In this document: positions 5,031 through 22,784 of the stretch, in pieces
How positions within the stretch are numbered: position 1 is the first letter of the stretch
Layout of the letters: each line of letters begins with the position of its first letter
Assembly (NCBI GenBank): GCA_903835235.1
Contig: CAILMF010000041.1
Location: forward strand, 7,733-71,732
Length of the DNA stretch: 64,000 bases
Reading direction: 5' to 3'
DNA from: an uncultured Rhodospirillales bacterium
Lineage (GTDB): Bacteria; Pseudomonadota; Alphaproteobacteria; Acetobacterales; Acetobacteraceae
Program-made: the position numbers and the translations under genes
The notes under the pieces: model-generated
What the model was told of the DNA's origin: nothing
Database searches by the model: none
What the model saw: only the letters and a program-made list of their open reading frames with translations

Positions 5031-8000
5031 TCGGCGGCCAAAGCCTCGCGTCCGCTCAGCGCGGCGCGCAGGCGTTCCAACGCCAGGTAGATCGCCGGCG
5101 TGGTGTACAGCGTGATCACCTGGCTCAGCAGCAAACCGCCGATGACGGAAACGCCCAGCGGCAGCCGCAGCTCGCTGCCGGGGCCATGGCCCAGCACCAG
5201 CGGCACCGCGCCCAGCAGCGCCGCCATCGTCGTCATCATGATCGGGCGGAACCGCAGCACGGAGGCTTCGTAGATCGCCTCCTCCGGCGTGCGGCCGTGG
5301 TCGCGCTGCGCCTCCAACGCGAAGTCGATCATCATGATCGCGTTCTTCTTCACGATCCCCATCAGCAGCACGATGCCGATGATGCCGACCACGCTGAGGT
5401 CCAGCCCGCAGAGCCACAGCGCCAGCAGCGCGCCGATGCCGGCCGAGGGCAGCGTGGACAGGATGGTCAGCGGATGGATCATGCTCTCGTACAGCATGCC
5501 CAGCACGATGTAGATGACGATGATCGCGGCCAAGATCAGCCAGGGCGTGCCGGCCAATGAGCGGTTGAACTCCGCCGCGTCGCCGTTGAACTCGCCGGTG
5601 ATGGTCTCGGGCATGCCCAGCTGCGCCTCGGCGCGCCGGATCGCGGCGACCGCGGCGCCGAGCGAGACGCCTTCGGGCAGGTCGAAGCCGATGGTGACGG
5701 CGGGGAACTGGTCCTGCCGGTTCACCGTCAGCGGCCCGGCGCGGCGGCCGATCTCGGCGATTTCGCCCAGCGGCACCTGCACGCCATTGGCGCCGGGCAC
5801 GCGCAGCAGTGCCACCAGCGCGGGGTCGTCGCGCATCGCCTGCGTCGTCTCCAGCACCACGCGATACTGGTTTGACTGGCCGTAGATGGTGCTGATCTGG
5901 CGCTGGCCGAAGGCGTCGTACAGCACGTCGTCCACCGCCTGCATCGTCACGCCGAGCCGCGCCATGCGCTCGCGGTCCACCTGCACTGTCACGCGCAGCC
6001 CGCCCTCGCGCAGGTCGGTGGTCAGGTCGCGCAGCTCCGGCGCCTGGCGCAGCAGCGCCAGCAGCCGGCCGGACCACTCCGACAGCTCCACCGTGTCGGG
6101 GTCCATCAGCGTGTACTGGAACTGCGTGGCGCTGACGCGCGTGCCGATCTGGATATCCTGCACCGGCTGGAGATGCACGAGGATGCCGGGCACCGCTTCC
6201 AGCTGCGGCTGCAACCGCGCCGCCACCTGCTGGGCGCTTTCGGCCCTGGCGTCGCGCGGCAGCAATACCGCGGTCAGCCGCCCGGTATTCTGCGCCGGGT
6301 TGATCGGCCCGGCGCCGGCGACGCTGGTGGTGGAGACCACCGCCGGGTCGGCCAGCACGATCCGCGTGACCTCCTGCTGCAACTCGGAGACGCGGCGGAA
6401 GCTGGCATCCTGCGGCGCCTCCATGGTGATGGTGATGAGGCCGGTATCCTGCGCCGGCAAAAAGCCCTTGGGCACCAGGATGTACAGCGCCACGGTGCCG
6501 GCCACCGTCGCCGTTGCCAGCAGCAGCATCAGCGCCTCATGCCGCAGCGTCCAGCGCAGGCTTTCGGCGTAGCGGTCGCGCAGCCAGTCGAAGCCGCGTT
6601 CCGCCCAGCGGGAGACGGCGCTGGGCCGGTCCTCGCCATGCGGGCGCATCAGGTGGCCGGTCATCATCGGCGTCAGCGTCAGGGAAACGAACAGCGAGAC
6701 GACGACGGCGATGGTCAGGGTCAGTGCGAATTCGCGGAACAGCCGGCCGACCACGCCCTGCATGAACAGCAGCGGGATGAACACCGCGACCAGCGAGACG
6801 GTCAGCGAGACCACGGTGAAGCCGATCTGCCGCGCGCCCTTGTAGGCGGCGGCCAGCGGCTTCTCGCCTTCCTCGATCAGCCGGACGATGTTCTCGATCA
6901 TCACGATGGCATCGTCCACCACGAAGCCGGTCGCGATGGTCAGCGCCATCAGCGAGAGGTTGTCCATCGAGAAGCCGCAGAGCGACATGATCCCGAAGGT
7001 GCCGATGATGGACAGCGGCAGCGCCACGCCGGGCACGAAGGTGGCGCGCGCGGTGCGCAGGAACAGCCAGATCACCAGCACCACCAGCACCACCGCCAGC
7101 ACCAGGGTGAACTGCACCTCATGCACGCTGGCGCGGATGGTTTCGGTACGGTCGGCCACCACATGCAGCGTGGCGCCCGGGGGCACCGCGGCCTGCAATA
7201 TCGCCAGTTGCGCCCGCACGCGGTCCACGGTGGCCACGATATTGGCGCCGGGCTGGCGCTGCACGTCGATCAGCACCGCGCGCTGGCCATTGTACCAGGC
7301 GGCGTTCAGCGTGTTCTCCAGCCCCTCCACCGCCTCGCCGATATCCGAGAAGCGCACCGGTGCGCCGTTGCGCCAGGCGATGACGGTATTGGCGAAGGCC
7401 GCGGGCGTCACCAGCTGGTCGTTCGCCATGACGGCGCTGGCCTGGCGCGGCCCGTCCAGCCCGCCCTTCGGCCCCGCCAGGTTGGCACTGGCGATGACGC
7501 TGCGCACATCCTCCAGCGAAAGCCCGTAGCTGGCCAGGCGCTGCGGGTCCGCGCGCAGGCGGATGGCGGGGCGCATGTTGCCCTGCACGGTCACCCTGCC
7601 AACGCCGGTCACCTGGCTCAGCCGCTGCGCCAGCAGCGTATCGGCGGCATCCGAAAGCCGCGGCGTCGGCAGCGTCTCGCTGGTCAGCGCCAGGGTCATG
7701 ATCGGCGGGTCCGCCGGATTCACCTTGGCGTAGACCGGCGGGTAGGGCAGGCCGGACGGCAGCGTGCCGCGAGCCGCGTTGATGCCGGCCTGCACGTCCT
7801 GCGCGGCGTCGTCGATATCCCGCCCCAGGTTGAATTGCAGCGTGATGCGCGACACGCCGGGCCCGCTGACCGAGGAGATGCTGCTGAGCCCGGAGATCTG
7901 GTTCAGCTGGCGTTCCAGCGGCGCCGCGATCAACACCGAAATCGTCTCCGGCGAGGCGCCGGGCAGTTGCGTCGAAACCTCGATGGTCGGGAAGTCCACA

Positions 8001-12104: not shown

Positions 12105-12830
12105 CTACGGCCGTACCGCCGGCGCCTCCACCGCCAGCCCGGCACCGCGCCGGGCCAGGAACAGCTCGATCTCGGTGTATTCCGCCGCGCCAAAGGCCGG
12201 CGCGGTGGCGCGCACGCCCACCATGCAGTTGCGCAGCCGGCGTTGCAGGCTGCCCAGCGCCTGCCATTCCAGCCGATACTGCGGGTAGCCATTGGCCTGG
12301 CCCTCGGGGATCAGCGCGCTGCCCAACCGCAGCCCGGCGCGCTCCTCATGGCATTGCGCGCAGCTCAGGTTCAACTGGCCGCGCCGCTGGCGGAACAGCG
12401 CCTCGCCCCGCGCCAGCGCCGGCGCCAGCCGCGGGTCCTCCGGCGGCGCCAGCGGCAGCCCGCGGGATTGCCGGGTGACGAAGGCCGCAAGCGCCAGCAG
12501 CGGCTCGCTTTCGCGGGCCAAGGGTGCGGCCTGCTGGCGTTCGGCGCGGCATTGCTGGATCCGCCCGGCCAGGTCGATCGGTGCCGCCGTTGCTTCGTCC
12601 CAGGCCGGGTAGCGCGTGGCCACGCCGGCCAGGCCGGCATGGCAATCGGCGCAGGCCTTCTGCGCCCGGCCCTCGGCGCGGTGGAACAGCGCCTCGCCCT
12701 CCTGCACCCAGAGCATGCCGGGATTGGCGCTGTCGTCGGCCTGCATCGCCTGCAACTCCCGCGACATGTCGAGCGCGCCGGAACGCGGTTCGGCCGCCGC
12801 CACCGAGACGAGCAGCAGCAGCCACTTCAT
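12105..12830 (-). CDS. soxA: dihaem cytochrome c SoxA
   Basis: Track ORF of 241 aa with a signal peptide MKWLLLLVSVAAA. Two CxxCH haem motifs (CADCH, CAQCH) and the downstream conserved Cys context LQRRLRNCMVGVR expected for the SoxA active-site haem ligand. ATGA overlap with the soxZ stop (12827-12830). Confidence 0.8.
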   Translation of the reverse strand: MKWLLLLVSVAAAEPRSGALDMSRELQAMQADDSANPGMLWVQEGEALFHRAEGRAQKACADCHAGLAGVATRYPAWDEATAAPIDLAGRIQQCRAERQQAAPLARESEPLLALAAFVTRQSRGLPLAPPEDPRLAPALARGEALFRQRRGQLNLSCAQCHEERAGLRLGSALIPEGQANGYPQYRLEWQALGSLQRRLRNCMVGVRATAPAFGAAEYTEIELFLARRGAGLAVEAPAVRP

Positions 12831-13147
12831 GTCACGGTGATGGCCCGCGTCTCGGTCTGGCGGAAATCGTCATCGCCTTCCCAGGTGAAGCTCAGCGTGC
12901 CGCTCTCGGTCGCCACCGTGGTGAAGCTGATGAAGGGGTTGGCGGCGATGGCGGAACTCAGCTCGGCCTGGAACACCACCTCCCCATCATAGTCGCAGGT
13001 GAAGCGGGTGATGATGTCGCGCGGCAGGATGGTGCCGTTGGTGCCCGGGCGGAAGCCGCTCTCCATCGGGTGCATGATCAGGGTGCGGATCTCGATGACG
13101 GCGCCCCTGGCCGCGCTGCGCGGCAGGTTCAGCAGCACGCGGGCCAT
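12827..13147 (-). CDS. soxZ: thiosulfate-oxidation carrier complex protein SoxZ
   Basis: Track ORF of 106 aa. IEIRTLIMHPMESGFRPGTNGTILPRDII...ISAIAANPFISF is the SoxZ pattern. Only 3 nt separate it from the SoxY-like stop. Confidence 0.85.
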   Translation of the reverse strand: MARVLLNLPRSAARGAVIEIRTLIMHPMESGFRPGTNGTILPRDIITRFTCDYDGEVVFQAELSSAIAANPFISFTTVATESGTLSFTWEGDDDFRQTETRAITVT

Positions 13148-13150
13148 GGC

Positions 13151-13588
13151 TCAGCTCTCGATGCAGGCGGCAAGGGTCACGATGACCTCCTGCCTGGTGG
13201 ACCAGAAGCTGCCATCGCTCATCGCCGCCACGGCGGTGATGAACTGCGACGTCGCCAGCCGCATGTGGGTGGCCAGCTCCGCCCGGCCGGCGCGCGGGCC
13301 GAAGCGCGCCGTCACCACCTGCGGCTGCGGGTTCTTTTCATTGAACAGGGCAATGGCGGTCACGTGGTCGGCCGTTGTCATCGGGCTGGCGACCGTGACC
13401 TTCAGCGGCACGACATTGCCGTTTTCCACCAGCGGCGGAATGTCCAGCTCCACCCGGCCTTCGCGCGGCACCACACCGCCGGTGAAGGCGCGGATCGCCG
13501 CGGCCTGATCCTCCGGCGTGGCCAGCCCGGCGGCCGGGCGCAGCGCCAGCGCCAGCAGCGCGCCGGCGGCGAATTCGCGCCTATTCAT
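13151..13588 (-). CDS. SoxY-related sulfur-carrier protein with non-canonical AACIES C-terminal arm
   Basis: Track ORF of 145 aa. Tat-type signal MNRREFAAGALLALALRPAAGLA and a SoxY-like immunoglobulin-fold body (VELDIPPLVENGNVVPLKVTV...). The C-terminus is ...VIVTLAACIES, not the canonical GGCGG. Confidence 0.8.
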   Translation of the reverse strand: MNRREFAAGALLALALRPAAGLATPEDQAAAIRAFTGGVVPREGRVELDIPPLVENGNVVPLKVTVASPMTTADHVTAIALFNEKNPQPQVVTARFGPRAGRAELATHMRLATSQFITAVAAMSDGSFWSTRQEVIVTLAACIES

Positions 13589-13970
13589 CAGCAGTGAGGG
13601 TCAGCAGGAAGGCAACCACGTCCTCGATCTCCGCTTCGGTCAGTATCGGCTTGCCGCGAAACGCCGGCGCCACGTCGCGCAGGCTGTTCGCCACGCCGTA
13701 GGAGGGCATGATGCTGTCCGGGTTCAAGCCCTGGCTGTCGGTGAGGCGCGCCCGCAGCGCCGCCGCGTCCCAGCGCCGCCCGGCGCCGGCCAGGGAAGGC
13801 GCCAGGTTGCCCTGGAAGCGTTCCTCCGGGAATGGCCCGGAATGGCACAGCAGGCAGAGCCCCTTCTGCCGGGTGGTGACGATGGCCCGGCCGCGCGCCG
13901 CATCGCCCTCGGCCCAGGCCGGCGTGGCGAGCAGCGCCAGGGCCAACCACCATCTAGCCGAAGACAGCAT
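13581..13970 (-). CDS. soxX: monohaem cytochrome c SoxX
   Basis: Track ORF 13581..14030 trimmed to the ATG at 13970 (MLSSARWWLALALLATPAWAEG signal peptide). Single haem motif CLLCH and GNLAPSL...PDSIMPSYG contexts. It overlaps the FCSD stop by 17 nt and the SoxY-like start by 8 nt. Confidence 0.7.
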   Translation of the reverse strand: MLSSARWWLALALLATPAWAEGDAARGRAIVTTRQKGLCLLCHSGPFPEERFQGNLAPSLAGAGRRWDAAALRARLTDSQGLNPDSIMPSYGVANSLRDVAPAFRGKPILTEAEIEDVVAFLLTLTADE

Positions 13971-15207
13971 GGGTAATGGTGGCGAACCAGCCCTCGGCAT
14001 ACTGCGCTTCCTGCGCGCGGAAGCTGGCATCGGCGTTGAGCGGGCTGATGCCGCCGGCGCCCGGCACGTCGCTCAGCAGGCCGTTGGCGGGCTGGTACAC
14101 GCCCGCGATGGAAATCCCATACTCCGGCGCCACCAGGCTGTAGCAGGTGTTCAGCAGCTTGGTCGGGCTGGGCGCTTCGCCCTGCAGCAGGCCCGCCACC
14201 ACCTGGGCGCAGGCGCGCGCCTGGGCATTGGCGGCAAAGGCGCTCTTTGGCATCGCCCCGCCGATGCAGGCATCCCCGACCACATGCACCCCCGGCCGCA
14301 GCCGGCTCTCGAAGCTCACCGGGTCCACCGGGCACCAGCCGCTGCGGTCCGCCACGCCGGCGAGGCGCGCGATCTCCCCGGCCTGCTGCGGCGGGATCAC
14401 ATTGCCCACGGCCGCGACATGCTTCTCGAAGTTGGTCTTGAAGCTGCGGGTCGCCGCGTCCACCTCGGTCACCTGGCCGCCAGCTGAACGCGAGACGTAT
14501 TCCAGATTCGGGTACAGCGCCGCCCAGGCCTGCTCGAACAGCCGCTGCTTGGAAAATTGGTCCTTGGCGTCCAGCACCAGCAGCTTGCTGCGCGGCTTGT
14601 TCTGCTTGAGGTAGTGCGCGACCAGGCTGGCCCGCTCATAGGGGCCGGGCGGGCAGCGATACGGGTTGGCCGGCACGCTCATCACCACCAGGCCGCCATC
14701 GGGCATGGCGCGCAGCTGGTCGCGCAGCAGCAGGGTCTGCGGCCCGGCCTTCCAGGCATGCGGCAGGCGCTCCGCGGCGGCTGGGTCGTAGCCGGGCAGG
14801 GCGGCCCAGTTGAGGTCCACACCCGGCGCCAGCACCACGCGGTCGAACGGCAGTGCGGTGCCATCGGCCAGCCGCACCGCGCGCTCCTCCACCGCCACGG
14901 CGCGCTGGTGCACCACGGTCACGCCGGCCCGCTTCAGCCCGTCATAGCCGAAGCGCTGGGCCGACATTTCCCGCAGCCCCGCGATGACGGCATTGCTGAA
15001 CGGGCAGGACATGTACTCGGCGCTGGCTTCCACCAGCGTCACCGCCACGCCCGCCGCGTGCAGCGTGCGGGCCGCGGTGGCGCCGGCGAACCCACCGCCG
15101 ACCACCACCACCTTGGGCTTCCCGGTCCCTTGGGCCAGCGCCAGCGCCGGGGCCGCGAGCAGCCCCAAGGAGGCCCCCAAGGCCAGGCGCCGGCGCATCC
15201 GGCTCAT
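13954..15207 (-). CDS. flavocytochrome-c sulfide dehydrogenase flavoprotein subunit (FccB/SoxF-like), Tat-exported
   Basis: Track ORF 13954..15618 trimmed to ATG 15207 (MSRMRRRLALGASLGLLAAPALALAQG). FAD Rossmann motif KVVVVGGGFAGATAA. FCSD C-terminal domain, 417 aa. Confidence 0.85.
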   Translation of the reverse strand: MSRMRRRLALGASLGLLAAPALALAQGTGKPKVVVVGGGFAGATAARTLHAAGVAVTLVEASAEYMSCPFSNAVIAGLREMSAQRFGYDGLKRAGVTVVHQRAVAVEERAVRLADGTALPFDRVVLAPGVDLNWAALPGYDPAAAERLPHAWKAGPQTLLLRDQLRAMPDGGLVVMSVPANPYRCPPGPYERASLVAHYLKQNKPRSKLLVLDAKDQFSKQRLFEQAWAALYPNLEYVSRSAGGQVTEVDAATRSFKTNFEKHVAAVGNVIPPQQAGEIARLAGVADRSGWCPVDPVSFESRLRPGVHVVGDACIGGAMPKSAFAANAQARACAQVVAGLLQGEAPSPTKLLNTCYSLVAPEYGISIAGVYQPANGLLSDVPGAGGISPLNADASFRAQEAQYAEGWFATITHAVFG

Positions 15208-15213
15208 GCTACC

Positions 15214-15235
15214 GGCAGGAGGCTTGCCTCCTGCC
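15214..15235 (-). promoter_or_regulatory. perfect 10+10 inverted repeat (GGCAGGAGGC-TT/AA-GCCTCCTGCC) 6 nt upstream of the FCSD start codon
   Basis: Read directly as ggcaggaggcttgcctcctgcc. On the mRNA, the only GGAGG near the start would pair with CCTCC. Confidence 0.4.
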
Positions 15236-15350
15236 GAGGCGCCGAACGGCGCCCGCCGGTCGCGCCCAAGGGCGCGCGGACCCGCGCGATGCGGCGAAAG
15301 CCAAGCCGCCGGACGGCGGCGCCCGGCGTCTGAGGGCGTGCAACGCAGCT

Positions 15351-15385
15351 GATACCGTCGGTCAAGGAACTTGGCCGACGGTATC
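15351..15385 (-). terminator. strong hairpin at the 3' end of iorB (11-bp perfect stem extended by a further 4 bp, GAA loop)
   Basis: gataccgtcgg-tcaaggaacttgg-ccgacggtatc. The right arm overlaps the iorB stop codon. There is no U-tract, so it is either a Rho-independent-like terminator or an RNA-stability hairpin. Confidence 0.5.
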
Positions 15386-17579
15386 AGTGCTTCAGGTCGG
15401 CATGGCGCAGCGGCAGGCGGCGCACCCGCTTGCCGGTGGCGGCGAAGATCGCGTTCAGCACCGCCGGTGCCGCCACCGCAATCGTCGGCTCGCCCACGCC
15501 ACCCCAGAAGCCGCCGGAGGGCATCACGATGCTCTCCACCGCCGGCATCTCGTCCATCCGCAGGGCCTGGTAGGTGTCGAAGTTCTCCTGCTCCATGCGG
15601 CCGTCCTTCACCGTGCATTCCTGGTAGAAGGCGGCGCCCAGCCCGTAGACGAAGCTGCCTTCAACCTGGGCGGCGATCTGCTGCGGGTTCACCGCATGCC
15701 CCGGGTCGGTGGCGGCGGTGATCTTGTGCACCTTCACCTCGCCGCCACGGCTGACCGAGACCTCGGCGCAGGCGGCCACATAACTGCCATAGCCCATGAT
15801 CGCGGCCAGGCCGCGATGGTGCCCGGCCGGCGCCGGCTTGCCCCAGCCGCCCTTGTCCGCCACCGCGTTCAGCACCGCCAACTGCTTCGGCGCGCCACGC
15901 AGCAGGGCGCGGCGGAACTCCAGCGGGTCCTTGCCGGCGGCATGGGCCACTTCGTCAATGAAGCATTCCATGTAGACGGCGTTCTGGTTCAGGTTCACCC
16001 CGCGCCAGAAGCCCGGCGGCACATGCGGGTTGCGCATGGCGTGGTCGATCAGCAGGTTCGGCACGCCATAGCCGAAGGTGAACTCGTTGCCGCCCTGCGC
16101 CATGCCCTGGAAGACGCGGCTGTCCAGCCCGTTCTCCAGCAGGTTCGGCGCAATGCCGGCCACGATGGACTGGCCGGAGATGCGCACATGCATGGCGTCC
16201 ACCTTGCCATCCGCATCCAGCCCGGCGGTCAGCCGGCACTGGGTGATGGGGTGGAAGCGGCCATGCAGCATGTCCTCCTCGCGGCTCCACAGCAGTTTAA
16301 CGGGCACGCCCGGCATCTGCTTGGCGATCTGCACCGCCTGGGTGACGTAGTCATGCCAGCCGCGCCGGCCGAAGCCGCCGCCCAGGTGGATCTTGTGGAC
16401 CTCGCATTGCTGCGCCCGGTGGCCGGAAGCCGCCGCCGCCGCGGCCAGCGCCGCGTCGCCATTCTGCGTCGGGCACCAGACTTCGCACTTGTCGGCGGTC
16501 CACACCGCCGTGGCGTTCATCGGCTCCATCGTCGCGTGGTTCTGGAACGGGAAGCTGTAGGTCGCCTCGATCTTCAGGACCGCCTTGCCCATGGCTTCCG
16601 CCATGTTGCCGGCGCGGTTGCCGATAAAGGCCTGGGTTGCGGTCAGGCCCTCGGCCACCATGGCGTCGATGTCGGCCTGCTGGATGCGGGCGTTGGGGCC
16701 CTCGTCCCACAGGATCTCCACCGCATCCAGGCCGGTCTTGGCCTGCCACCAGGTCTCCGCCACCACGGCCACGGCGGTCTCACCCACCTGCACCACCTTC
16801 TTGACGCCCGGCTTGGCCATGGCGGCGGCGGCATTGAAGCTGCGCACCTTGCCGCCGAACACTGGGCAATCCTTGATCGCGGCGTTCAGCATGCCCGGCA
16901 GCTTCAGATCGGCGCCATAGACCTGCTTGCCGTTCACCTTGTCCCGCGTGTCCAGGCGGGCCATCGGCTTGCCGGCGATCTTCCAGTCCTTCGGGTCCTT
17001 CAGCGTGATGCTGGCGGCCGCCGGCGGGGTGATGGCCGCCGCCGCCACCGCCACCTTGCCGTAGGTGGTGCGGCGATTGGTCTTGGCGTGGATGATGGTG
17101 CCCTTGTCCACCGTCAGTTCGGCGGCCGGCACCTTCCAGCTCTCGGCCGCGGCCTGCACCAGCATGATCTTCGCCGCGGCGCCGCCCTTGCGGACGTAGT
17201 CGTGGCTGGCGCGGATGCCGCGGCTGCCGCCGGTTGACATGTCGCCCCAGACCCGGTTGCGCAGCAGGTTCTGCGTGGGCGTCGGGTATTCCGTGGTCAC
17301 CTTGGCCCAGTCGCAGTCCAGCTCCTCGGCCACCAGCTGGGCCAGGCCGGTCAGCGTGCCCTGGCCCATCTCGCTGCGGGCGATGCGGATGACGACGGTG
17401 TCGTCGGCCTTCACCACCACCCAGGCATTCACCTCGGGCGGAATGGCGGTTGCGGCGGCCGGCGCGCTCTGGCCGGCGGCCTCCTCGATGAAGGGCGCCT
17501 GGATGGCCAGGGTGAAGGCGCCGAGCGCGGCGGAGGCCTTCAGGAAGCCGCGGCGGGAAGACGGTGCGATGTGCGTCAT
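15384..17579 (-). CDS. molybdopterin-binding aldehyde oxidase/isoquinoline 1-oxidoreductase beta subunit (IorB-like), Tat-exported
   Basis: Track ORF 15384..17627 trimmed to ATG 17579, with GGGAGGG upstream. Tat motif SSRRGFLKASAALGAF. Xanthine-dehydrogenase-family Mo-binding domains (SEMGQGTLTGLAQLVAEEL...). Confidence 0.85.
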   Translation of the reverse strand: MTHIAPSSRRGFLKASAALGAFTLAIQAPFIEEAAGQSAPAAATAIPPEVNAWVVVKADDTVVIRIARSEMGQGTLTGLAQLVAEELDCDWAKVTTEYPTPTQNLLRNRVWGDMSTGGSRGIRASHDYVRKGGAAAKIMLVQAAAESWKVPAAELTVDKGTIIHAKTNRRTTYGKVAVAAAAITPPAAASITLKDPKDWKIAGKPMARLDTRDKVNGKQVYGADLKLPGMLNAAIKDCPVFGGKVRSFNAAAAMAKPGVKKVVQVGETAVAVVAETWWQAKTGLDAVEILWDEGPNARIQQADIDAMVAEGLTATQAFIGNRAGNMAEAMGKAVLKIEATYSFPFQNHATMEPMNATAVWTADKCEVWCPTQNGDAALAAAAAASGHRAQQCEVHKIHLGGGFGRRGWHDYVTQAVQIAKQMPGVPVKLLWSREEDMLHGRFHPITQCRLTAGLDADGKVDAMHVRISGQSIVAGIAPNLLENGLDSRVFQGMAQGGNEFTFGYGVPNLLIDHAMRNPHVPPGFWRGVNLNQNAVYMECFIDEVAHAAGKDPLEFRRALLRGAPKQLAVLNAVADKGGWGKPAPAGHHRGLAAIMGYGSYVAACAEVSVSRGGEVKVHKITAATDPGHAVNPQQIAAQVEGSFVYGLGAAFYQECTVKDGRMEQENFDTYQALRMDEMPAVESIVMPSGGFWGGVGEPTIAVAAPAVLNAIFAATGKRVRRLPLRHADLKH

Positions 17580-17595: not shown

Positions 17596-18060
17596 TCAGC
17601 CGCGCCGCGCATTGGCGTCGGCGGCACGCTTGATGCCGGCGATGACCCGGTTGTAGGTGCCGCAACGGCAGATATTGGTGATGTTCTCGCGGATCTCGGC
17701 CTCGGTCGGCTTCGGGTTGGCTGCCAGCAGCGAAGCGGCGGCCATCAGCATGCCGGACTGGCAGTAGCCGCATTGCGGCACGTCCAGCGCCACCCAGGCC
17801 TGCTGCAGCGGGTGAGTGCTGTTGGGCGAAAGCCCCTCGATCGTGGTGATCTTCTGGTTCGGCTGCACCGCCGAAACCGGCAGCGCGCAGGAACGGACGG
17901 CCTGGCCGTCCACCTGCACCGTGCAGGCGCCGCATTGCGCGATGCCGCAGCCATACTTGGTGCCGGTCATGCCCAGCTGTTCGCGGATGACCCAGAGCAG
18001 GGGCGTGTCAGGGTCAACCTGCACGTCATGAACCCGCCCATTGACGTTCAACTTCGTCAT
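17596..18060 (-). CDS. (2Fe-2S)-binding small subunit of the molybdoenzyme (IorA-like)
   Basis: Track ORF of 154 aa. It has both [2Fe-2S] cluster motifs: GCGIAQCGACTV and CGYCQSG...CRCGTY. Confidence 0.9.
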   Translation of the reverse strand: MTKLNVNGRVHDVQVDPDTPLLWVIREQLGMTGTKYGCGIAQCGACTVQVDGQAVRSCALPVSAVQPNQKITTIEGLSPNSTHPLQQAWVALDVPQCGYCQSGMLMAAASLLAANPKPTEAEIRENITNICRCGTYNRVIAGIKRAADANARRG

Positions 18061-18227: not shown

Positions 18228-18962
18228 ATGATCGAGCGCGACGTCATCGTCACCACCAAGTACGGCCAGATGCCGAGCTTCACCTGCCACCCCGACAGCG
18301 GCGGGCCGTTCCCGGCCATCATCCTGTACATGGACGCACCGGGCATCCGCGAGGAGCTGCGCAACCTGGCGCGGCGCATCGCCAAGGCCGGCTACTTCGT
18401 GGTGCTGCCGGACATGTACTACCGCATGGGCCATATCCGCTTCGACACCGCGCGCCGCAACGACGCCATGTCGGCGATCATCCGCCCGACCATGAACCAC
18501 CTGACCAACGAGATGGTCATGGACGATACCGCCGGCCTCATCGGCTACATCGACGCGCAGGACGCGGCGAAGCCCGGTCCCATCGGCTGCGTCGGCTACT
18601 GCATGTCCGGCCGGCACATCACCAATGCGCTGACCCGCTTCCCCGACCGGATGAAGGCGGGCGCCTCGCTCTATGGCGTCGGCATCGTCACGGAAGCCGA
18701 GGACAGCCCGCATCTGGCGCTCAGCAAGGCGGCAGGCGGCGAGTTGTACTACGCCTTCGCCGAGACCGACCAGACGGTGCCGGACTTCGTCATCCCCAAG
18801 CTGCGCGCCGCGCTGGAAGCCACGGGGGTGCCGAGCCAGGTGGATGTCTACCCCGGCACCTTCCACGGCTTCGCCTTCCCGGAACGCCCGGTCTATGACC
18901 ACCACGCCGCCGAGGACAGCTGGGCCAAGATCTTCGCGATGTGGGCGCGCCGGCTGAAGTAG
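18228..18962 (+). CDS. dienelactone hydrolase family protein
   Basis: Track ORF of 244 aa with a GGGGAGA RBS. PAIILYMDAPGIREELRNLARRIAKAGYFVVLPDMYYR and the nucleophile elbow GCVGYCMSG are typical of DLH alpha/beta hydrolases. Confidence 0.75.
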   Translation: MIERDVIVTTKYGQMPSFTCHPDSGGPFPAIILYMDAPGIREELRNLARRIAKAGYFVVLPDMYYRMGHIRFDTARRNDAMSAIIRPTMNHLTNEMVMDDTAGLIGYIDAQDAAKPGPIGCVGYCMSGRHITNALTRFPDRMKAGASLYGVGIVTEAEDSPHLALSKAAGGELYYAFAETDQTVPDFVIPKLRAALEATGVPSQVDVYPGTFHGFAFPERPVYDHHAAEDSWAKIFAMWARRLK

Positions 18963-19026
18963 CCGCCCGCTTCACCTGTTGGGCCGGCGGTGTAGGATGC
19001 CGGCATAACAACAGGCGGGAACGGCG

Positions 19027-20970
19027 ATGCGGCAGGATTTTGCCAAGGCGGTACGGGCGGCGGTGGCCGATGAGGCGCAGCTGCGCGCCGCCCTGGCCGA
19101 GGCCGATATCGCCCCCTTGCTGATGGTGCTGGTGCAGCTGACCGGCGACACCGCGCTGCTGGACCAGGTGGCCCCGCACATCCAGGGCCCCTGGAGCTTC
19201 CTGGAAACCGTGCCGCCCGAGATGAAGGCCGCCCTGCGCGACCGGCTTGTCTCGGTATTGCGGGACTACGCCCGCGAAGGCCGCGCCGAGCCGCCCCGCC
19301 CGGACGAAGCCACGCTCCAGCGCATGATGAGTGCCGGCGTCGGCCAGCCGGTGCCGGCCGAGTACATCCCGCTGCTGCTGGAGGAAATGCGCTTCACGCC
19401 GGAAGACGAGCGCGCGGTGCGCTGGCGTCGCCAGCCGGCCGGGTTGGCGCGGTTCCGCGTGCTGATCATCGGCGCCGGGCTGACCGGGCTGTGCACCGCG
19501 ATCCGGCTCCAGGAAATGGGTATCCCCTTCACCATCCTGGAAAAGAACGCCGAGCTCGGCGGCACCTGGCTGGAGAACAGCTACCCCGGCTGCGCGGTGG
19601 ACACGCCGAACCACTTCTTCTCGTTCAGCTTCAACCCGAACGACAAGTGGTCGCGCCACTTCTCTCGCCGCGACGAGATCCTGGCCTATCTGCGCGACAT
19701 GGCCGCGAAGTACGACCTGCTGCCGCACATCCGCTTCAACGTTGAAGTGGATCGCGCCAGCTTCGATGCGCGGAGAGCGCAATGGCAGGTGGAGTTGCGC
19801 CGCCGCGACGGCGGGCAGGAGACGCTGAGCTGCAACGCCCTGGTCAGCGCCGTCGGCCAGCTCAACCGTCCCGCGCTGCCGGATATCGAAGGTATCGACG
19901 ACTTCGAAGGCCCGGTCTTCCACACCGCGCGCTGGGACCATACCGCACCGCTCAAGGGCCAGCGCGTCGCCATGCTCGGCACCGGGGCATCGGCGATGCA
20001 GGCGGCGCCGTCCATCGCGCCGGAGGCGGCGCACCTCACGGTGTTCCAACGCTCGCCGCACTGGGCGGTGAACAACCCGAACTACCACAAGCAGGTGGCC
20101 CCCGGCAGCACCTGGGCGCTGGAGCATCTGCCCTATTACTCGCAATGGCTGCGGTTTCAGCTGTTCTGGGCAAGTTCCGATGGCTTCCACGCCACCCTCT
20201 CGCCCGACCCGGAATGGGACCAGCCGGCGCTGTCGCTGAACGCCGCCAACCACCGCATGCGTGACATGCTGGTGGCGCACATGCGCAGCGAACTGGATGG
20301 CGACGAGGCGATGCTGGCCAAGGTGACGCCGGGCTACCCGCCCTATGGCAAGCGAATGCTGCGCGACAACCACTGGTACCGCATGCTGAAGCGCCCGAAC
20401 GTGACGCTGGAGACGGGCCGCATCGCCCAGGTGGAACGCGACGGCATCCGCATGCAGGACGGCACGTTCCACCCGCTCGATGTCATCATCCTCGCCACCG
20501 GCTTCCAGGCCAGCAAGATGCTCTGGCCGATGGAGATCGTGGGCAGCGAGGGCCGCAGCATCCGCGACCTGTGGGGCGATGACGACCCGCGCGCCTATAT
20601 GGGCATGACGGTGCCGGGCTTCCCCAACCTGTTCATCACCTACGGCCCCAACACCAACCTGGCGCATGGCGGCAGCATCATCTTCCACACGGAATGCCAG
20701 GTTCGCTACATCTGCCAGGCGCTCCGAGAAATGCTGGAGCACGACCTGGCCACACTGGAGGTGAAGCGGGACGTGCACGACGCCTACAACGTGAAGGTGG
20801 ATGACGCCTGCCAGCGCATGGTCTGGGCGCATCCCGGCGTCACCAGCTGGTACAAGAACCGGCACAACCGCGTCACCGTCACCTCGCCCTGGCGGCTGCT
20901 GGACTACTGGCGAATGACCAAGGAATTCCAGCCCGACGACTTCCACGCCCGGCAAGGAGCCGACGCATGA
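19027..20970 (+). CDS. type I Baeyer-Villiger flavin monooxygenase with ~140-aa N-terminal extension (HAPMO-like)
   Basis: Track ORF of 647 aa. The first Rossmann motif IIGAGLTG starts only at about aa 147. BVMO fingerprint FEGPVFHTARWD (FxGxxxHxxxWD) at aa 293-304. Second dinucleotide motif GTGASA. Confidence 0.85.
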   Translation: MRQDFAKAVRAAVADEAQLRAALAEADIAPLLMVLVQLTGDTALLDQVAPHIQGPWSFLETVPPEMKAALRDRLVSVLRDYAREGRAEPPRPDEATLQRMMSAGVGQPVPAEYIPLLLEEMRFTPEDERAVRWRRQPAGLARFRVLIIGAGLTGLCTAIRLQEMGIPFTILEKNAELGGTWLENSYPGCAVDTPNHFFSFSFNPNDKWSRHFSRRDEILAYLRDMAAKYDLLPHIRFNVEVDRASFDARRAQWQVELRRRDGGQETLSCNALVSAVGQLNRPALPDIEGIDDFEGPVFHTARWDHTAPLKGQRVAMLGTGASAMQAAPSIAPEAAHLTVFQRSPHWAVNNPNYHKQVAPGSTWALEHLPYYSQWLRFQLFWASSDGFHATLSPDPEWDQPALSLNAANHRMRDMLVAHMRSELDGDEAMLAKVTPGYPPYGKRMLRDNHWYRMLKRPNVTLETGRIAQVERDGIRMQDGTFHPLDVIILATGFQASKMLWPMEIVGSEGRSIRDLWGDDDPRAYMGMTVPGFPNLFITYGPNTNLAHGGSIIFHTECQVRYICQALREMLEHDLATLEVKRDVHDAYNVKVDDACQRMVWAHPGVTSWYKNRHNRVTVTSPWRLLDYWRMTKEFQPDDFHARQGADA

Positions 20971-21737
20971 GCGAACCCCTTCTGGTCCAGCGCGAGGGCG
21001 GCATCGCCTGGCTGCGCTTCAACCGGCCGGAGCGGCTGAACGCGATCGACGCCGCCATGGCCCTGGCCTTCCGCGACGCCGTCCGCGCCCTGCCCGGCGA
21101 CACCACGCTGCGCTGCGTGGTGCTGGCCGGGGAGGGCCGCGCCTTCATGGCCGGCGGTGACATCACCGCCTTCGGCAACGCGGACGCCATCGCCACCATC
21201 ATGGACCCGATGCACGAGGCGCTGGCGCTGCTGGCCGCCCTGCCGGTGCCGGTGCTGGCCAGCGTGCAGGGCGCCGCTGCCGGCGGCGGCATGAGCATCG
21301 CGTTGGCCGCCGACCTGGCCATTGCCGCCGACAACGCGAAGTTCAACCTGGCCTATCTGCGCCTCGGCACCTCGCCGGATTGCGGTGGCAGCTGGAACCT
21401 GGCGCGGCTGGTCGGGCTGCGCCGCGCAATGGGCATCGCCCTGCTGGAGGAAGTGCTGGACGCGCCGGCCGCGCTGGCCGCGGGGCTACTGAATAAGGTA
21501 GTGCCGGCGGCCGAGTTGGCCGAGGCCACCGCCGCCATGGCGCGCAAGCTGGCCGCCGGCCCGCGCGAGGCCAGCGGCCGCACCAAGCTGCTGCTGCGCG
21601 CCGCCGCCGGCCGCGACCTGCCGGCGCAGCTGGATGCCGAGCGGGAGAACTTCCTGGCCTGCGCCGGCACCGCCGACTTCGCCGAGGGCGTCGGCGCCTT
21701 CCTCGGCCGCCGCACGCCGGATTTTCCGGGGCGGTAA
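20967..21737 (+). CDS. enoyl-CoA hydratase/isomerase (crotonase) family protein
   Basis: Track ORF of 256 aa. LRFNRPERLNAID...VVLAGEGRAFMAGGD...GAAAGGGMSIALAAD is the crotonase-fold pattern. ATGA overlap with the BVMO stop. Confidence 0.85.
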   Translation: MSEPLLVQREGGIAWLRFNRPERLNAIDAAMALAFRDAVRALPGDTTLRCVVLAGEGRAFMAGGDITAFGNADAIATIMDPMHEALALLAALPVPVLASVQGAAAGGGMSIALAADLAIAADNAKFNLAYLRLGTSPDCGGSWNLARLVGLRRAMGIALLEEVLDAPAALAAGLLNKVVPAAELAEATAAMARKLAAGPREASGRTKLLLRAAAGRDLPAQLDAERENFLACAGTADFAEGVGAFLGRRTPDFPGR

Positions 21738-21830
21738 CGCTTGGGGGCAGGCAGCGCGCAGGCGCTCGGGGGCAGGTAGCGCCTGCCGGCGTAAGCTGGC
21801 AGCCTGCGCGCAACGACGGAGGAAACCGAG

Positions 21831-22784
21831 ATGCGGCGGCGTTCAGCCCTGGCCCTGCCTGCCCTGCTGCTTGCCGGCCGCGCCCAGGCGCAAGGCTTCC
21901 CGCAGCGCCCGGTCACCATCGTGGTGCCCTTCCCACCCGGCGGCTCCACGGATGTCGCGGCGCGGCTGCTGGCGGAACCCATGGCCGCGGCGCTTGGCGA
22001 ACGCGTGGTGGTGGAAAACCGCGGCGGCGGTGCCACCGTCGTCGGCACCGACTACGCTGCGCACGCCCCGGCCGACGGCTATACGCTGCTGATGGCGTCG
22101 GGCACCGCCTCCACCATCAACCCCATCATCGCCCGCAACCTGCCCTACAAGCCCAGCGATTTCGCGCCTGTCTCCCTCGTCGCCAAGCTGCCCTTCGCGG
22201 TCAATGTGCGCCCCGGCCTGCCGCAGACGCTGGCCGAGATCGTGGCGCTGGCCAAGGCGCAGCCGGGCCGGCTGACGCATGGCACCAACGGCCCGTCCAG
22301 CTTCAACAACATCGCCTGGGCGTTGGTGCAGGATGCACTTGGCTTCCGCACCCAGGACGTGACCTATCGCGGCGACAGCGCGCAGCTGAACGATTTTGCC
22401 GGTGGCCGGCTCGACCTCATCGTCGTTGGCGGCAGCACCGGCCTGCAGGCGGAACGCAACCGCATGGGCAAGCTGGTCGCCTGGACCGGGGACCGCCGCA
22501 TGCCCAGCACGCCCGACGTGCCGCTGGTGGCGGAGCTCAGCCCCGGCTGCGTCGCGCAGACCTGGTTCTGCCTGCTGGCACCCGCCCGCACGCCGCCGGA
22601 AGCCATCGCCAAGCTCAACGCCGCGGCTCAGCGCGCCATCGCCGCGCAGGAATTCCAGGACCGCATGCTGGCCGAGGGCCAGTTCGCCGAAGCCAGCACG
22701 CCCGAGGGCCTTGGCGCCTTCCTGCGCGCCGAGGATGCCCGCTGGCGCCCGGTGCTCGCCCGCCTGAACGTGCAGATGGACTGA
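21831..22784 (+). CDS. Bug-family (TctC-like) tripartite tricarboxylate transporter substrate-binding protein
   Basis: Track ORF of 317 aa. A signal peptide followed by FPQRPVTIVVPFPPGGSTDVAARLLAEPM...ENRGGGATVVG...DGYTLLM, the Bug signature. Confidence 0.85.
   Translation: MRRRSALALPALLLAGRAQAQGFPQRPVTIVVPFPPGGSTDVAARLLAEPMAAALGERVVVENRGGGATVVGTDYAAHAPADGYTLLMASGTASTINPIIARNLPYKPSDFAPVSLVAKLPFAVNVRPGLPQTLAEIVALAKAQPGRLTHGTNGPSSFNNIAWALVQDALGFRTQDVTYRGDSAQLNDFAGGRLDLIVVGGSTGLQAERNRMGKLVAWTGDRRMPSTPDVPLVAELSPGCVAQTWFCLLAPARTPPEAIAKLNAAAQRAIAAQEFQDRMLAEGQFAEASTPEGLGAFLRAEDARWRPVLARLNVQMD

What the first reader, a model, noticed from the sequence alone, without database searches (positions are those of the whole stretch)
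12105..15207. SoxB-less sox-like operon whose carrier protein ends in AACIES instead of the GGCGG swinging arm
Five co-directional, overlapping or abutting genes are present in this order. First, an FCSD flavoprotein with a Tat signal. Second, SoxX (CLLCH). Third, a SoxY-like carrier with Tat signal MNRREF. Fourth, SoxZ. Fifth, SoxA (CADCH, CAQCH and the RNCM active-site Cys context). Canonical SoxY carries the sulfur substrate on the Cys of a C-terminal GGCGG arm. Here the reverse-strand read of 13151-13180 gives ...VIVTLAACIES-stop, with no glycine hinge. No soxB (sulfate thiohydrolase), soxCD or other sox genes occur anywhere in the 64 kb. In the established Sox cycle, SoxB is needed to release sulfate from the carrier. 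I recall that protein-family annotation recognises a SoxY-related AACIE-arm subgroup, but I know of no biochemical characterisation of it. The locus may therefore be a distinct carrier-cysteine sulfur pathway fed by sulfide dehydrogenase rather than a thiosulfate oxidiser.
Basis: partly seen in the sequence, partly recalled or inferred. Interest (0 to 1): 0.6.

Follow-up and report, generated by a model that had tools for sequence, protein, structure and literature searches.

The report
Molybdoenzyme-linked, SoxB-independent Sox-like sulfur-carrier operon
The five genes are real, but they are the tail of a conserved seven-gene periplasmic operon that pairs a variant sulfur-carrier protein with a molybdenum enzyme instead of the usual SoxB; the cluster type is widespread and already named, but nobody has shown what it does.

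Summary
Window 12105-15207 (minus strand) encodes an FCSD-type flavoprotein, SoxX, SoxY, SoxZ and SoxA. All are intact and under purifying selection. SoxY ends in ...VTLAACIES and scores above the cut-off of NCBIfam TIGR04487, "SoxY-related AACIE arm protein".

The genome is 99% complete. It has no SoxB, no second SoxY and no second SoxA.

The two genes just upstream encode a [2Fe-2S] subunit and a Tat-exported xanthine-oxidase-family molybdenum subunit. They are syntenic with the sox-like genes in nearly all 80 related loci examined. They also sit beside the AAC/SAC-arm SoxY genes from a 401-genome sample wherever the flank reached. The flavoprotein is sometimes missing or moved.

About half of carrier genomes also have a canonical SoxB, so the module is independent of SoxB rather than exclusive of it.

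The cluster type has been noted in Starkeya novella and, I infer, in Bradyrhizobium and Polynucleobacter. This scan has also met it before on other DNA. Its function is untested.

My best reading is that sulfide-derived sulfane sulfur is loaded on the carrier cysteine and oxidised by the molybdenum enzyme, so no SoxB is needed. The chemistry is inferred, not shown.

The parts
17596..18060 (-). [2Fe-2S] small subunit of a xanthine-oxidase-family molybdenum enzyme (154 aa). It has no signal peptide and is probably exported together with the large subunit.
   Evidence: NCBIfam and Pfam hits to Fer2/Fer2_2 small subunits. All cluster cysteines are invariant in 52 orthologues. It is syntenic with the sox-like genes in the related loci.
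15384..17579 (-). Molybdenum-cofactor large subunit (731 aa) with a twin-arginine signal (MTHIAPSSRRGFLK), of the IorB / membrane-bound aldehyde-dehydrogenase type.
   Evidence: Pfam MoCoBD_1 and MoCoBD_2. The closest solved chain is 8gy3_C, the Gluconobacter aldehyde dehydrogenase large subunit, E 1.7e-73 over residues 8-730, with the catalytic GEP glutamate kept. The EMGQG, GGGFGR and GEPT motifs are invariant in 52 orthologues. It lies upstream of the AAC-arm SoxY clusters in the 80 loci and in the sampled genomes wherever the flank reaches.
15208..15383 (-). Highly structured 176-nt spacer between the molybdenum genes and the FCSD gene. It holds a long perfect hairpin at the stop codon, a GC-rich terminator-like hairpin, and a hairpin that pairs the GGAGG just upstream of the FCSD start.
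   Evidence: Sequence. MFE -119 kcal/mol, z = -4.5 against shuffles. Terminator-like site at 15328-15307. In relatives the spacer ranges from 0 to several hundred nt, so the two halves are probably co-transcribed with a chance for differential expression (inference).
13954..15207 (-). FCSD/SoxF-type sulfide dehydrogenase flavoprotein (417 aa) with a Tat signal. No FccA cytochrome gene is present.
   Evidence: Pfam FCSD_central and FCSD-flav_bind. E 1e-111 to 1e-124 to 5n1t_A, 3vrd_B and 1fcd_A. A Cys is kept in each of the SCPF, RCPPGPYERAS and NTCYS motifs, which by my recollection of 1FCD are the FAD-linking Cys and the redox-disulfide pair. It is the only FCSD in the genome.
13581..13970 (-). 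SoxX, a monohaem cytochrome c (129 aa as called on public contigs; CLLCH).
   Evidence: TIGR04485 80 bits, cut-off 61. Gene call.
13151..13588 (-). SoxY paralogue with a Tat signal and the carrier Cys142 in a ...VTLAACIES end.
   Evidence: TIGR04487 195.5 bits, above the 172 cut-off. Sequence. V137, T138, A141 and C142 are invariant in 52 orthologues. It falls in the AAC clade.
12827..13147 (-). SoxZ partner of the carrier (106 aa, no signal peptide).
   Evidence: PF08770 91.5 bits; TIGR04490 80.4 bits, cut-off 76.
12105..12830 (-). Dihaem SoxA (241 aa) with an intact active site.
   Evidence: TIGR04484 204 bits. The alignment to 1h31_A and 2c1d_A keeps both CXXCH motifs, the haem-1 Cys (QQCR), the active-site Cys (RNCM) and the YRL motif.

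Best explanation
The locus is one copy of a self-contained, SoxB-independent periplasmic module of seven genes. These are the [2Fe-2S] and molybdenum subunits of a xanthine-oxidase-family hydroxylase, an FCSD-type flavoprotein, SoxX, an AAC-arm SoxY, SoxZ and SoxA.

Shown: all parts are intact, predicted to be exported, conserved in synteny and under purifying selection. The AAC arm and the molybdenum enzyme go together across families and classes. The module occurs with or without a canonical Sox system.

Inferred mechanism:
1. Sulfide is oxidised by the flavoprotein and/or coupled by SoxXA to Cys142 of SoxY, giving a carrier persulfide.
2. The AAC arm presents this sulfane sulfur to the molybdenum centre.
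3. The molybdenum centre adds oxygen from water in two-electron steps, taking over the roles of SoxCD and SoxB.
4. The resulting S-sulfinate or S-sulfonate leaves as sulfite, or as thiosulfate after attack by a further sulfide, and the carrier is regenerated without a hydrolase.
5. Electrons pass from the [2Fe-2S] clusters and FAD to the SoxX/SoxA haems, the only cytochromes in the operon, and on to the respiratory chain.
6. In this genome the solitary SoxC-type sulfite dehydrogenase could finish the oxidation to sulfate.

My confidence that this is a distinct molybdenum-coupled carrier system is about 0.8. The 0.45 given below is for inorganic sulfide or sulfane sulfur as the substrate. For the specific sulfur-oxygenation chemistry my confidence is about 0.2.
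For: Family assignments and motifs.

No SoxB and no second SoxY, SoxA or FCSD in a 98.97%-complete genome.

The seven-gene synteny Fer2-MoCoBD-FCSD-SoxX-SoxY-SoxZ-SoxA holds in nearly all of 80 loci, from Acetobacteraceae, Reyranella, Bradyrhizobium, Xanthobacteraceae, Rhizobiaceae, Methylobacteriaceae, Telmatospirillum and Geminicoccaceae.

In a 401-genome Pseudomonadota sample, 13 genomes besides this one carry an AAC/SAC-arm SoxY. Nine of them show the molybdenum large subunit beside the cluster. In the other four the short flank ends inside FCSD. This includes variants below the TIGR04487 cut-off and genomes outside the class. None of the 19 GGCGG loci examined shows a MoCoBD hit in the sequence held.

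The AAC arm is separated from the GGCGG type by a single branch with 99/99 support.

Catalytic residues are kept in SoxA, FCSD and the molybdenum enzyme.

dN/dS is 0.12-0.32 for all seven genes against L008 and L009.

The module stands alone in many genomes. SoxB is absent from about 23 of 50 carriers, and 10 of the 13 sampled carriers have no second SoxY-like hit.

No other gene is conserved in the flanks, so the module is self-sufficient.

A SoxC-family sulfite dehydrogenase plus cytochrome c lies elsewhere in this genome.

Literature: the S. novella second sox cluster, with its XO-family molybdenum enzyme, is not induced by thiosulfate (PMC3797975). B. diazoefficiens soxY2 is not needed for thiosulfate oxidation (PMC5748708).
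Against: To my knowledge no xanthine-oxidase-family enzyme is known to oxygenate a sulfur atom. Known members attack carbon centres, and the closest solved relative is an aldehyde dehydrogenase.

No substrate, product or carrier adduct has been observed for any member.

FCSD is missing from a minority of modules, so sulfide input through it is not universal.

A SoxC-family sulfite dehydrogenase is found in only 28 of 50 carrier genomes, and not in the three closest relatives, which are MAGs of unknown completeness. A dedicated sink for sulfite is therefore not a constant companion.

I could not confirm that the Bradyrhizobium soxY2 and Starkeya soxY2 genes are AAC-type. That link rests on the matching cluster architecture and on genus-level hits.
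Confidence: 0.45

Rival explanations
1. Organic or organosulfur substrate. The molybdenum enzyme does what its family normally does, which is to hydroxylate a carbon centre of an aldehyde, N-heterocycle or C=S/thiol compound. SoxXA first tethers a thiol-bearing substrate to SoxY-Cys142 as a mixed disulfide. Hydroxylation at carbon then releases the organic product and leaves a carrier persulfide, which FCSD or SoxXA chemistry clears. This would be a periplasmic desulfurisation or detoxification route in soil and freshwater heterotrophs.
For: The closest solved homologue is an aldehyde dehydrogenase, and the catalytic Glu and molybdenum-binding motifs are typical of carbon hydroxylases. The hosts are mostly heterotrophs from soil, peat and freshwater. 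The module is not induced by thiosulfate, glucose or methanol in S. novella.
Against: FCSD-type flavoproteins and SoxXA are, as far as I know, only described acting on inorganic sulfur. FCSD keeps the conserved cysteines expected of an active sulfide dehydrogenase. No transporter, regulator or catabolic gene for an organic compound is conserved beside the module.
Confidence: 0.25
2. Cofactor-maintenance system. The Sox-like part generates a persulfide on the AAC arm and delivers it to the molybdenum centre, to restore the terminal Mo=S ligand that xanthine-oxidase-family enzymes need. That ligand could not otherwise be repaired once the enzyme is in the periplasm. The real substrate would then be an unknown organic compound.
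For: The molybdenum enzyme and the AAC arm are tightly linked. No hydrolase is needed. Expression is low in S. novella. By my recollection, cysteine persulfides are the sulfur donors for Moco sulfuration in Moco sulfurase and XdhC-type systems.
Against: Five genes, including two high-capacity redox enzymes, would be a heavy investment for repair. Other periplasmic members of the family, such as PaoABC and the aldehyde dehydrogenase of 8gy3, have no such helper. Nothing here tests the idea directly.
Confidence: 0.08
3. Electron-transfer sharing only. SoxXA simply replaces the cytochrome c subunit that three-subunit IorAB/aldehyde-dehydrogenase enzymes normally carry, and the two halves of the operon catalyse unrelated reactions.
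For: There is no dedicated cytochrome c gene next to the molybdenum subunits, and SoxX directly follows them when FCSD is absent.
Against: This does not explain why SoxYZ, and specifically its AAC-arm form, always travels with the molybdenum enzyme, nor why SoxA keeps its catalytic cysteine.
Confidence: 0.1
4. Spare or isoenzyme parts of the ordinary thiosulfate-oxidising Sox system, used interchangeably with canonical SoxYZ and SoxB.
For: SoxA, SoxX and SoxZ pass the NCBIfam 'true Sox' cut-offs. About half of carrier genomes also hold a canonical sox cluster.
Against: This genome and about half of the carriers have no SoxB or GGCGG SoxY at all. soxY2 is dispensable for thiosulfate oxidation in B. 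diazoefficiens. The second cluster is not induced by thiosulfate in S. novella.
Confidence: 0.05

Closest known systems
NCBIfam TIGR04487, 'SoxY-related AACIE arm protein' (curated paralogue family of SoxY)
   Same: The window's SoxY scores 195.5 bits against a cut-off of 172. It has the AAC[ILVT]E end, a Tat signal and the SoxY fold.
   Different: Nothing differs; it is a member. The family name records the motif only, and no function is attached. Related arms below the cut-off (AACVIG, AACVVL, SACTE, SACID) share the same gene neighbourhood.
Starkeya novella 'second sox gene cluster' soxX2Y2Z2A2F2 (Snov_1982-1977) with an XO-family molybdenum enzyme (Snov_1975/1976), PMC3797975
   Same: It has the same parts list: SoxXA, SoxYZ, a SoxF-like flavoprotein and an XO-family molybdenum enzyme, with no SoxB or SoxCD. 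The authors judged it non-functional or condition-specific because expression was very low.
   Different: The gene order differs. There the flavoprotein and molybdenum genes lie on the other side, as in L123 here. S. novella also has a full canonical sox cluster, which this genome lacks. I could not check the S. novella SoxY2 C-terminus.
Canonical Sox thiosulfate-oxidising system (SoxXA, SoxYZ, SoxB, SoxCD; Paracoccus / Rhodovulum type)
   Same: It has a dihaem SoxA with the Cys-ligated active-site haem, SoxX, a SoxYZ carrier with a cysteine near the C-terminus, and an associated FCSD/SoxF-type flavoprotein.
   Different: There is no SoxB. The arm is AAC rather than GGCGG, and the cysteine lies 2-6 residues from the end rather than at a fixed third-from-last position. 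A xanthine-oxidase-family molybdenum enzyme takes the place of the sulfite-oxidase-family SoxCD in the operon.
Periplasmic IorAB / membrane-bound aldehyde dehydrogenase type molybdenum hydroxylases (PDB 8gy3)
   Same: A [2Fe-2S] small subunit plus a Tat-exported MoCo large subunit, with the catalytic Glu and molybdenum-binding motifs kept.
   Different: There is no dedicated cytochrome c subunit; SoxX and SoxA are the only cytochromes in the operon. Identity to the aldehyde dehydrogenase is low and the substrate is unknown.
Flavocytochrome c sulfide dehydrogenase FccAB (PDB 1fcd, 3vrd, 5n1t)
   Same: The flavoprotein aligns end to end, and a Cys is kept in each of the three conserved motifs.
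   Different: No FccA cytochrome gene is present. It resembles the monomeric SoxF arrangement, and it is optional within the module.

Membership tests
NCBIfam TIGR04487 SoxY-related AACIE arm protein | HMM score above the curated cut-off and above the score for the GGCGG-type model | tested here: met
   195.5 bits (cut-off 172), against 96.3 bits (cut-off 125) for TIGR04488.
NCBIfam TIGR04487 SoxY-related AACIE arm protein | C-terminal AAC-I/V/L/T-E arm in place of GGCGG | tested here: met
   The protein ends ...VTLAACIES-stop. The same pattern occurs in all 80 homologues.
NCBIfam TIGR04487 SoxY-related AACIE arm protein | Falls in the AAC clade, separate from GGCGG SoxY | tested here: met
   A single branch with 99/99 support separates 41 AAC rows from 19 GGC rows.
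Canonical Sox thiosulfate-oxidising system | SoxY with the GGCGG swinging arm | tested here: not met
   The only SoxY in the genome is the AAC type.
Canonical Sox thiosulfate-oxidising system | SoxB sulfate thiohydrolase in the genome | tested here: not met
   No TIGR04486 match at E <= 0.001 in a 98.97%-complete genome.
Canonical Sox thiosulfate-oxidising system | SoxXA cytochrome complex with a Cys-ligated active-site haem | tested here: met
   TIGR04484 and TIGR04485 score above their cut-offs. The active-site Cys and both CXXCH motifs align with 1h31_A.
Canonical Sox thiosulfate-oxidising system | SoxCD sulfane dehydrogenase within the sox cluster | tested here: not met
   None in the window. 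A solitary SoxC-family gene plus cytochrome c lies on contig C70.
Canonical Sox thiosulfate-oxidising system | Thiosulfate-dependent cytochrome c reduction or growth | not testable with these tools
   Needs culture or enzymology. The published hints on similar clusters are negative.
Flavocytochrome c sulfide dehydrogenase (FccAB) | FccB flavoprotein with the FAD-linking Cys and the redox-active Cys pair | tested here: met
   The SCPF, RCPPGPYERAS and NTCYS motifs align with 3vrd_B and 5n1t_A. The roles of the cysteines are from my recollection of 1FCD.
Flavocytochrome c sulfide dehydrogenase (FccAB) | Adjacent FccA dihaem cytochrome subunit | tested here: not met
   The gene after FCSD is SoxX. 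No other cytochrome is called in the operon.
Xanthine-oxidase-family periplasmic molybdenum hydroxylase (IorAB / aldehyde dehydrogenase type) | [2Fe-2S] small subunit plus MoCo-binding large subunit with the catalytic Glu | tested here: met
   The invariant cysteines and the GEPT motif are shown.
Xanthine-oxidase-family periplasmic molybdenum hydroxylase (IorAB / aldehyde dehydrogenase type) | Dedicated cytochrome c third subunit | tested here: not met
   No such gene is present. FCSD or SoxX follows the large subunit in every locus.
Xanthine-oxidase-family periplasmic molybdenum hydroxylase (IorAB / aldehyde dehydrogenase type) | Oxidation of an aldehyde or N-heterocycle | not testable with these tools
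   The substrate is unknown.

The most novel reading that the evidence does not exclude
A xanthine-oxidase-family molybdenum hydroxylase oxygenates sulfane sulfur tethered to the AAC-arm SoxY, using water as the oxygen donor and cytochromes as electron acceptors. This would be an oxygen-independent counterpart of persulfide dioxygenase. It would replace SoxB plus SoxCD and give abundant soil and freshwater heterotrophs (Bradyrhizobium, Reyranella, Polynucleobacter, Acetobacteraceae) a hitherto unrecognised periplasmic route from sulfide to sulfite or thiosulfate.
Probability: 0.2. Interest if true: 0.8.

Novelty: new member of a known kind. Interest (0 to 1): 0.5.

Why it matters
Genome surveys usually count soxXYZA genes as thiosulfate-oxidation potential. 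A recent SoxY phylogeny removed, as poor quality, every sequence without the GGC motif (PMC11237559).

This family was found in at least 403 species genomes. It occurs in about 3% of a Pseudomonadota sample: 9 of 401 genomes score over the curated cut-off, and 14 of 401 carry an AAC/SAC arm. Carriers include dominant soil and freshwater genera. The family therefore causes a systematic mis-annotation.

It is also a well-defined unknown. It is a compact, self-sufficient periplasmic module whose chemistry must differ from the textbook Sox cycle. If the molybdenum enzyme acts on carrier-bound sulfur, that would be a new reaction type for its enzyme family and a new branch of the oxidative sulfur cycle. 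If the substrate is organic, it would be a new way of using a protein-cysteine carrier in the periplasm.

Cultured carriers exist, so the question can be tested directly.

Tried and rejected
1. Complex prediction of the molybdenum large subunit, the [2Fe-2S] subunit and mature SoxY, each with a 52-row alignment. The score was 0.31 against a mark of 0.32 and the tool gave no verdict. I count it neither for nor against binding.

2. Conserved flanking genes. I clustered 3129 flank ORFs from the 80 loci. No family was present in more than 24 loci. The commonest were lineage-specific (an Lrp/AsnC regulator after the Reyranella clusters, an M19 peptidase, an aldolase) or had no Pfam hit. No regulator or transporter gives away the substrate.

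3. Sulfite dehydrogenase as an obligatory companion. TIGR04555 is over its cut-off in only 28 of 50 carrier genomes, so it is not a constant partner.

4. Paralogues of the molybdenum enzyme in this genome (37%, 31% and 30% identity). I looked for a neighbouring multihaem cytochrome that SoxXA might have replaced. Nothing clear was seen.

5. Literature. There are no papers with 'AACIE' plus SoxY and none linking iorAB with sox genes. Masuda et al. 2010 (PMC2849208) and Kappler & Maher 2013 (PMC11113948) are not held. The identity of Bradyrhizobium soxY2 with the AAC type therefore rests on inference.

6. A frameshift hiding a GGCGG end. Rejected: the stop follows AACIES directly and the motif is conserved in 80 homologues.

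7. A decaying remnant. Rejected: dN/dS is 0.12-0.32 in all seven genes.

Full report
**Observation**

The minus strand of window 12105-15207 carries five tightly packed genes.
- FCSD-type flavoprotein: 13954-15207, 417 aa, N-terminus MSRMRRRLAL.
- SoxX: 13581-13970, CLLCH.
- SoxY: 13151-13588, starts MNRREF and ends VIVTLAACIES followed directly by TGA.
- SoxZ: 12827-13147.
- SoxA: 12105-12830, with CADCH, CAQCH and RNCM.

NCBIfam and Pfam confirm each assignment. SoxY passes the curated cut-off of TIGR04487, "SoxY-related AACIE arm protein" (195.5 bits against 172). It fails the GGCGG-type model TIGR04488 (96 bits against 125).

**Not an artefact**

All 80 homologues fetched from species-representative genomes end in VT[LIM][AGSP]AC[ILVTA][ED] plus one to four more residues. 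In a 52-sequence alignment V137, T138, A141 and C142 are invariant. Pairwise dN/dS against two relatives at 83-87% amino-acid identity is 0.12-0.32 for all genes.

SoxA keeps both haem-binding motifs, the haem-1 cysteine and the active-site cysteine when aligned with the Rhodovulum and Paracoccus structures. The flavoprotein aligns end to end with FccB of 5n1t, 3vrd and 1fcd. It keeps a cysteine in each of three conserved motifs; by my recollection of 1FCD these are the FAD-linking cysteine and the redox-disulfide pair.

**The rest of the genome**

The window lies in a 5.97-Mb assembly of 87 contigs, 98.97% complete. Its closest relatives are Acetobacteraceae MAGs.
- There is no SoxB match.
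- There is only this one SoxY, one SoxA and one FCSD.
- The genome does hold a solitary SoxC-family sulfite dehydrogenase (TIGR04555, 569 bits) followed by a c-type cytochrome on another contig. "No soxCD" is therefore true of the window but not of the genome.

I ran tblastn with the window's proteins against the 80 loci. The conserved unit is seven genes on one strand:
1. a [2Fe-2S] small subunit (window 17596-18060);
2. a Tat-exported molybdenum-cofactor large subunit of the xanthine-oxidase family (15384-17579);
3. FCSD;
4. SoxX;
5. SoxY;
6. SoxZ;
7. SoxA.

This order holds across Acetobacteraceae, Reyranella, Bradyrhizobium, Xanthobacteraceae, Rhizobiaceae, Methylobacteriaceae, Telmatospirillum and Geminicoccaceae. 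In five loci FCSD is absent and SoxX follows the molybdenum genes directly.

A separate sample of 401 Pseudomonadota genomes gave nine matches over the TIGR04487 cut-off, counting this genome. After inspecting C-termini and neighbours, 13 genomes besides this one carry an AAC- or SAC-arm SoxY. These include variants below the cut-off (AACVIG, AACVVL, SACID) and genomes outside the class, among them two small genomes of 1.7-1.9 Mb. Nine of the 13 have the molybdenum large subunit beside the cluster. In the other four the short flank ends inside FCSD. None of the 19 GGCGG loci examined showed a MoCoBD hit in the sequence held.

A maximum-likelihood tree separates 41 AAC rows from 19 GGC rows by a single branch with 99/99 support. 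No further gene is conserved in the flanks. The module is thus self-contained, and its defining partner is the molybdenum enzyme rather than the sulfide dehydrogenase.

**Relation to SoxB**

Of 50 carrier genomes searched, 23 have a full-length SoxB elsewhere and about four more have fragments. The rest have none, including the three closest relatives and most Reyranella genomes. In the phylum sample, 10 of the 13 carriers have no second SoxY-like gene. One genome (G012) holds both a GGCGG SoxY and the AAC module. The module is therefore independent of the canonical system: it neither needs it nor excludes it.

**The molybdenum enzyme**

Its closest solved relative is the large subunit of the Gluconobacter membrane-bound aldehyde dehydrogenase (8gy3_C, E 1.7e-73, aligned over residues 8-730). 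The catalytic glutamate (GEPT) and the EMGQG and GGGFGR motifs are invariant. Enzymes of this type normally carry their own cytochrome c subunit. Here the only cytochromes in the operon are SoxX and SoxA.

The 176-nt spacer before the FCSD gene is strongly structured (z = -4.5). It includes a terminator-like hairpin and a hairpin that sequesters the GGAGG ahead of the FCSD start. In relatives the spacer shrinks to zero. I read this as one operon with possible internal modulation.

**What is published**

Kappler and Nouwens described a "second sox gene cluster" in Starkeya novella, soxX2Y2Z2A2F2 with an XO-family molybdenum enzyme. They found it barely expressed on glucose, methanol or thiosulfate (PMC3797975).

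In B. diazoefficiens only soxY1 is needed for thiosulfate oxidation; soxY2 is dispensable (PMC5748708). The primary paper is not held. The Polynucleobacter genome paper noted extra Bradyrhizobium-like SOX genes, Pnuc_1154-1157 (PMC3308952).

A large SoxY phylogeny removed every sequence lacking the GGC motif (PMC11237559). No paper in the library mentions the AACIE arm or links iorAB-type genes with sox genes.

Earlier follow-ups in this scan reached the same picture on other genomes. I found the molybdenum linkage independently before reading them. I took from them only the Starkeya lead, which I then checked in the paper.

**Mechanism**

Shown: every component is predicted to be periplasmic and keeps its catalytic residues. 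SoxB is absent. The AAC arm co-varies with the molybdenum enzyme.

Inferred:
- Sulfide is oxidised by the flavoprotein and/or coupled by SoxXA to Cys142, giving a carrier persulfide.
- The less flexible AAC arm, with its acidic tail, delivers this sulfur to the molybdenum centre.
- The molybdenum centre adds oxygen from water in two-electron steps.
- A Cys-S-sulfinate would fall apart to sulfite and the free carrier, as the persulfide dioxygenase product does. A Cys-S-sulfonate could be displaced by sulfide. Either way no hydrolase is needed.
- Electrons would leave through the [2Fe-2S] clusters and FAD to the SoxX and SoxA haems.

The weak point is that no xanthine-oxidase-family enzyme is known to act on sulfur.

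The main rival is that the molybdenum enzyme hydroxylates carbon in an organic or organosulfur substrate tethered to SoxY. Lesser rivals are:
- periplasmic repair of the Mo=S ligand by SoxY persulfide;
- mere sharing of cytochromes between two unrelated reactions;
- spare parts for the canonical Sox system, which is contradicted for this genome.

A structure-based test of molybdenum enzyme and SoxY docking gave no verdict and is not used as evidence.

**Verdict**

This is a real, intact member of a named but functionally uncharacterised family. The operon boundary, the key partner and the "always SoxB-less" expectation all need correcting. It rates as a new member of a known kind, of moderate interest because the function is an open and directly testable question in very common bacteria.

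Noticed in passing
window 15208-15383 (minus strand): The spacer between the molybdenum large-subunit gene and the FCSD gene is unusually structured (MFE -119 kcal/mol, z -4.5). A 13-bp perfect hairpin overlaps the stop codon. There is a GC-rich terminator-like hairpin with a weak T tail. A 10+10 hairpin pairs the only GGAGG with CCTCC just upstream of the FCSD ATG. Another first-stage note (e1-3902163) flagged the last hairpin.
   Followed up: partly
G000 contig C70, locus L087:1192-2445 and 2375-2968: A solitary SoxC-family sulfite dehydrogenase (TIGR04555, 569 bits) is followed by a c-type cytochrome, far from any other sox gene. It is of the 'paralogous SoxCD' kind discussed in PMC13500833.
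   Followed up: partly
L064:2736-4934 and 5675-7795; L067:3342-5504 and 5687-7825; L083:2908-5037 and 5110-7272: Some Xanthobacteraceae-like loci carry a second, tandem molybdenum large-subunit paralogue (about 49-50% identity to the window's protein) between the first one and FCSD.
   Followed up: no
L123:11308-12555 (G327): In one genome outside the class, the FCSD gene sits downstream of SoxA instead of between the molybdenum genes and SoxX. This resembles the order reported for Starkeya novella.
   Followed up: no
L122 (G348) and L098 (G288): Two small (1.7-1.9 Mb) genomes outside the Alphaproteobacteria, possibly Polynucleobacter, carry the module with a SAC arm (VTLSACTEMI, VTTSACTEEP) and no FCSD.
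   Followed up: partly
window 18230-22000 (from the gene calls on L002): Divergently from the operon lie a dienelactone hydrolase, a 647-aa FMO-like (Baeyer-Villiger-type) monooxygenase, an enoyl-CoA hydratase, a TctC-family binding protein and an MFS transporter. Downstream of SoxA lie LpxR and an RND efflux system with two large pump genes. None of these is conserved with the module in other genera.
   Followed up: no
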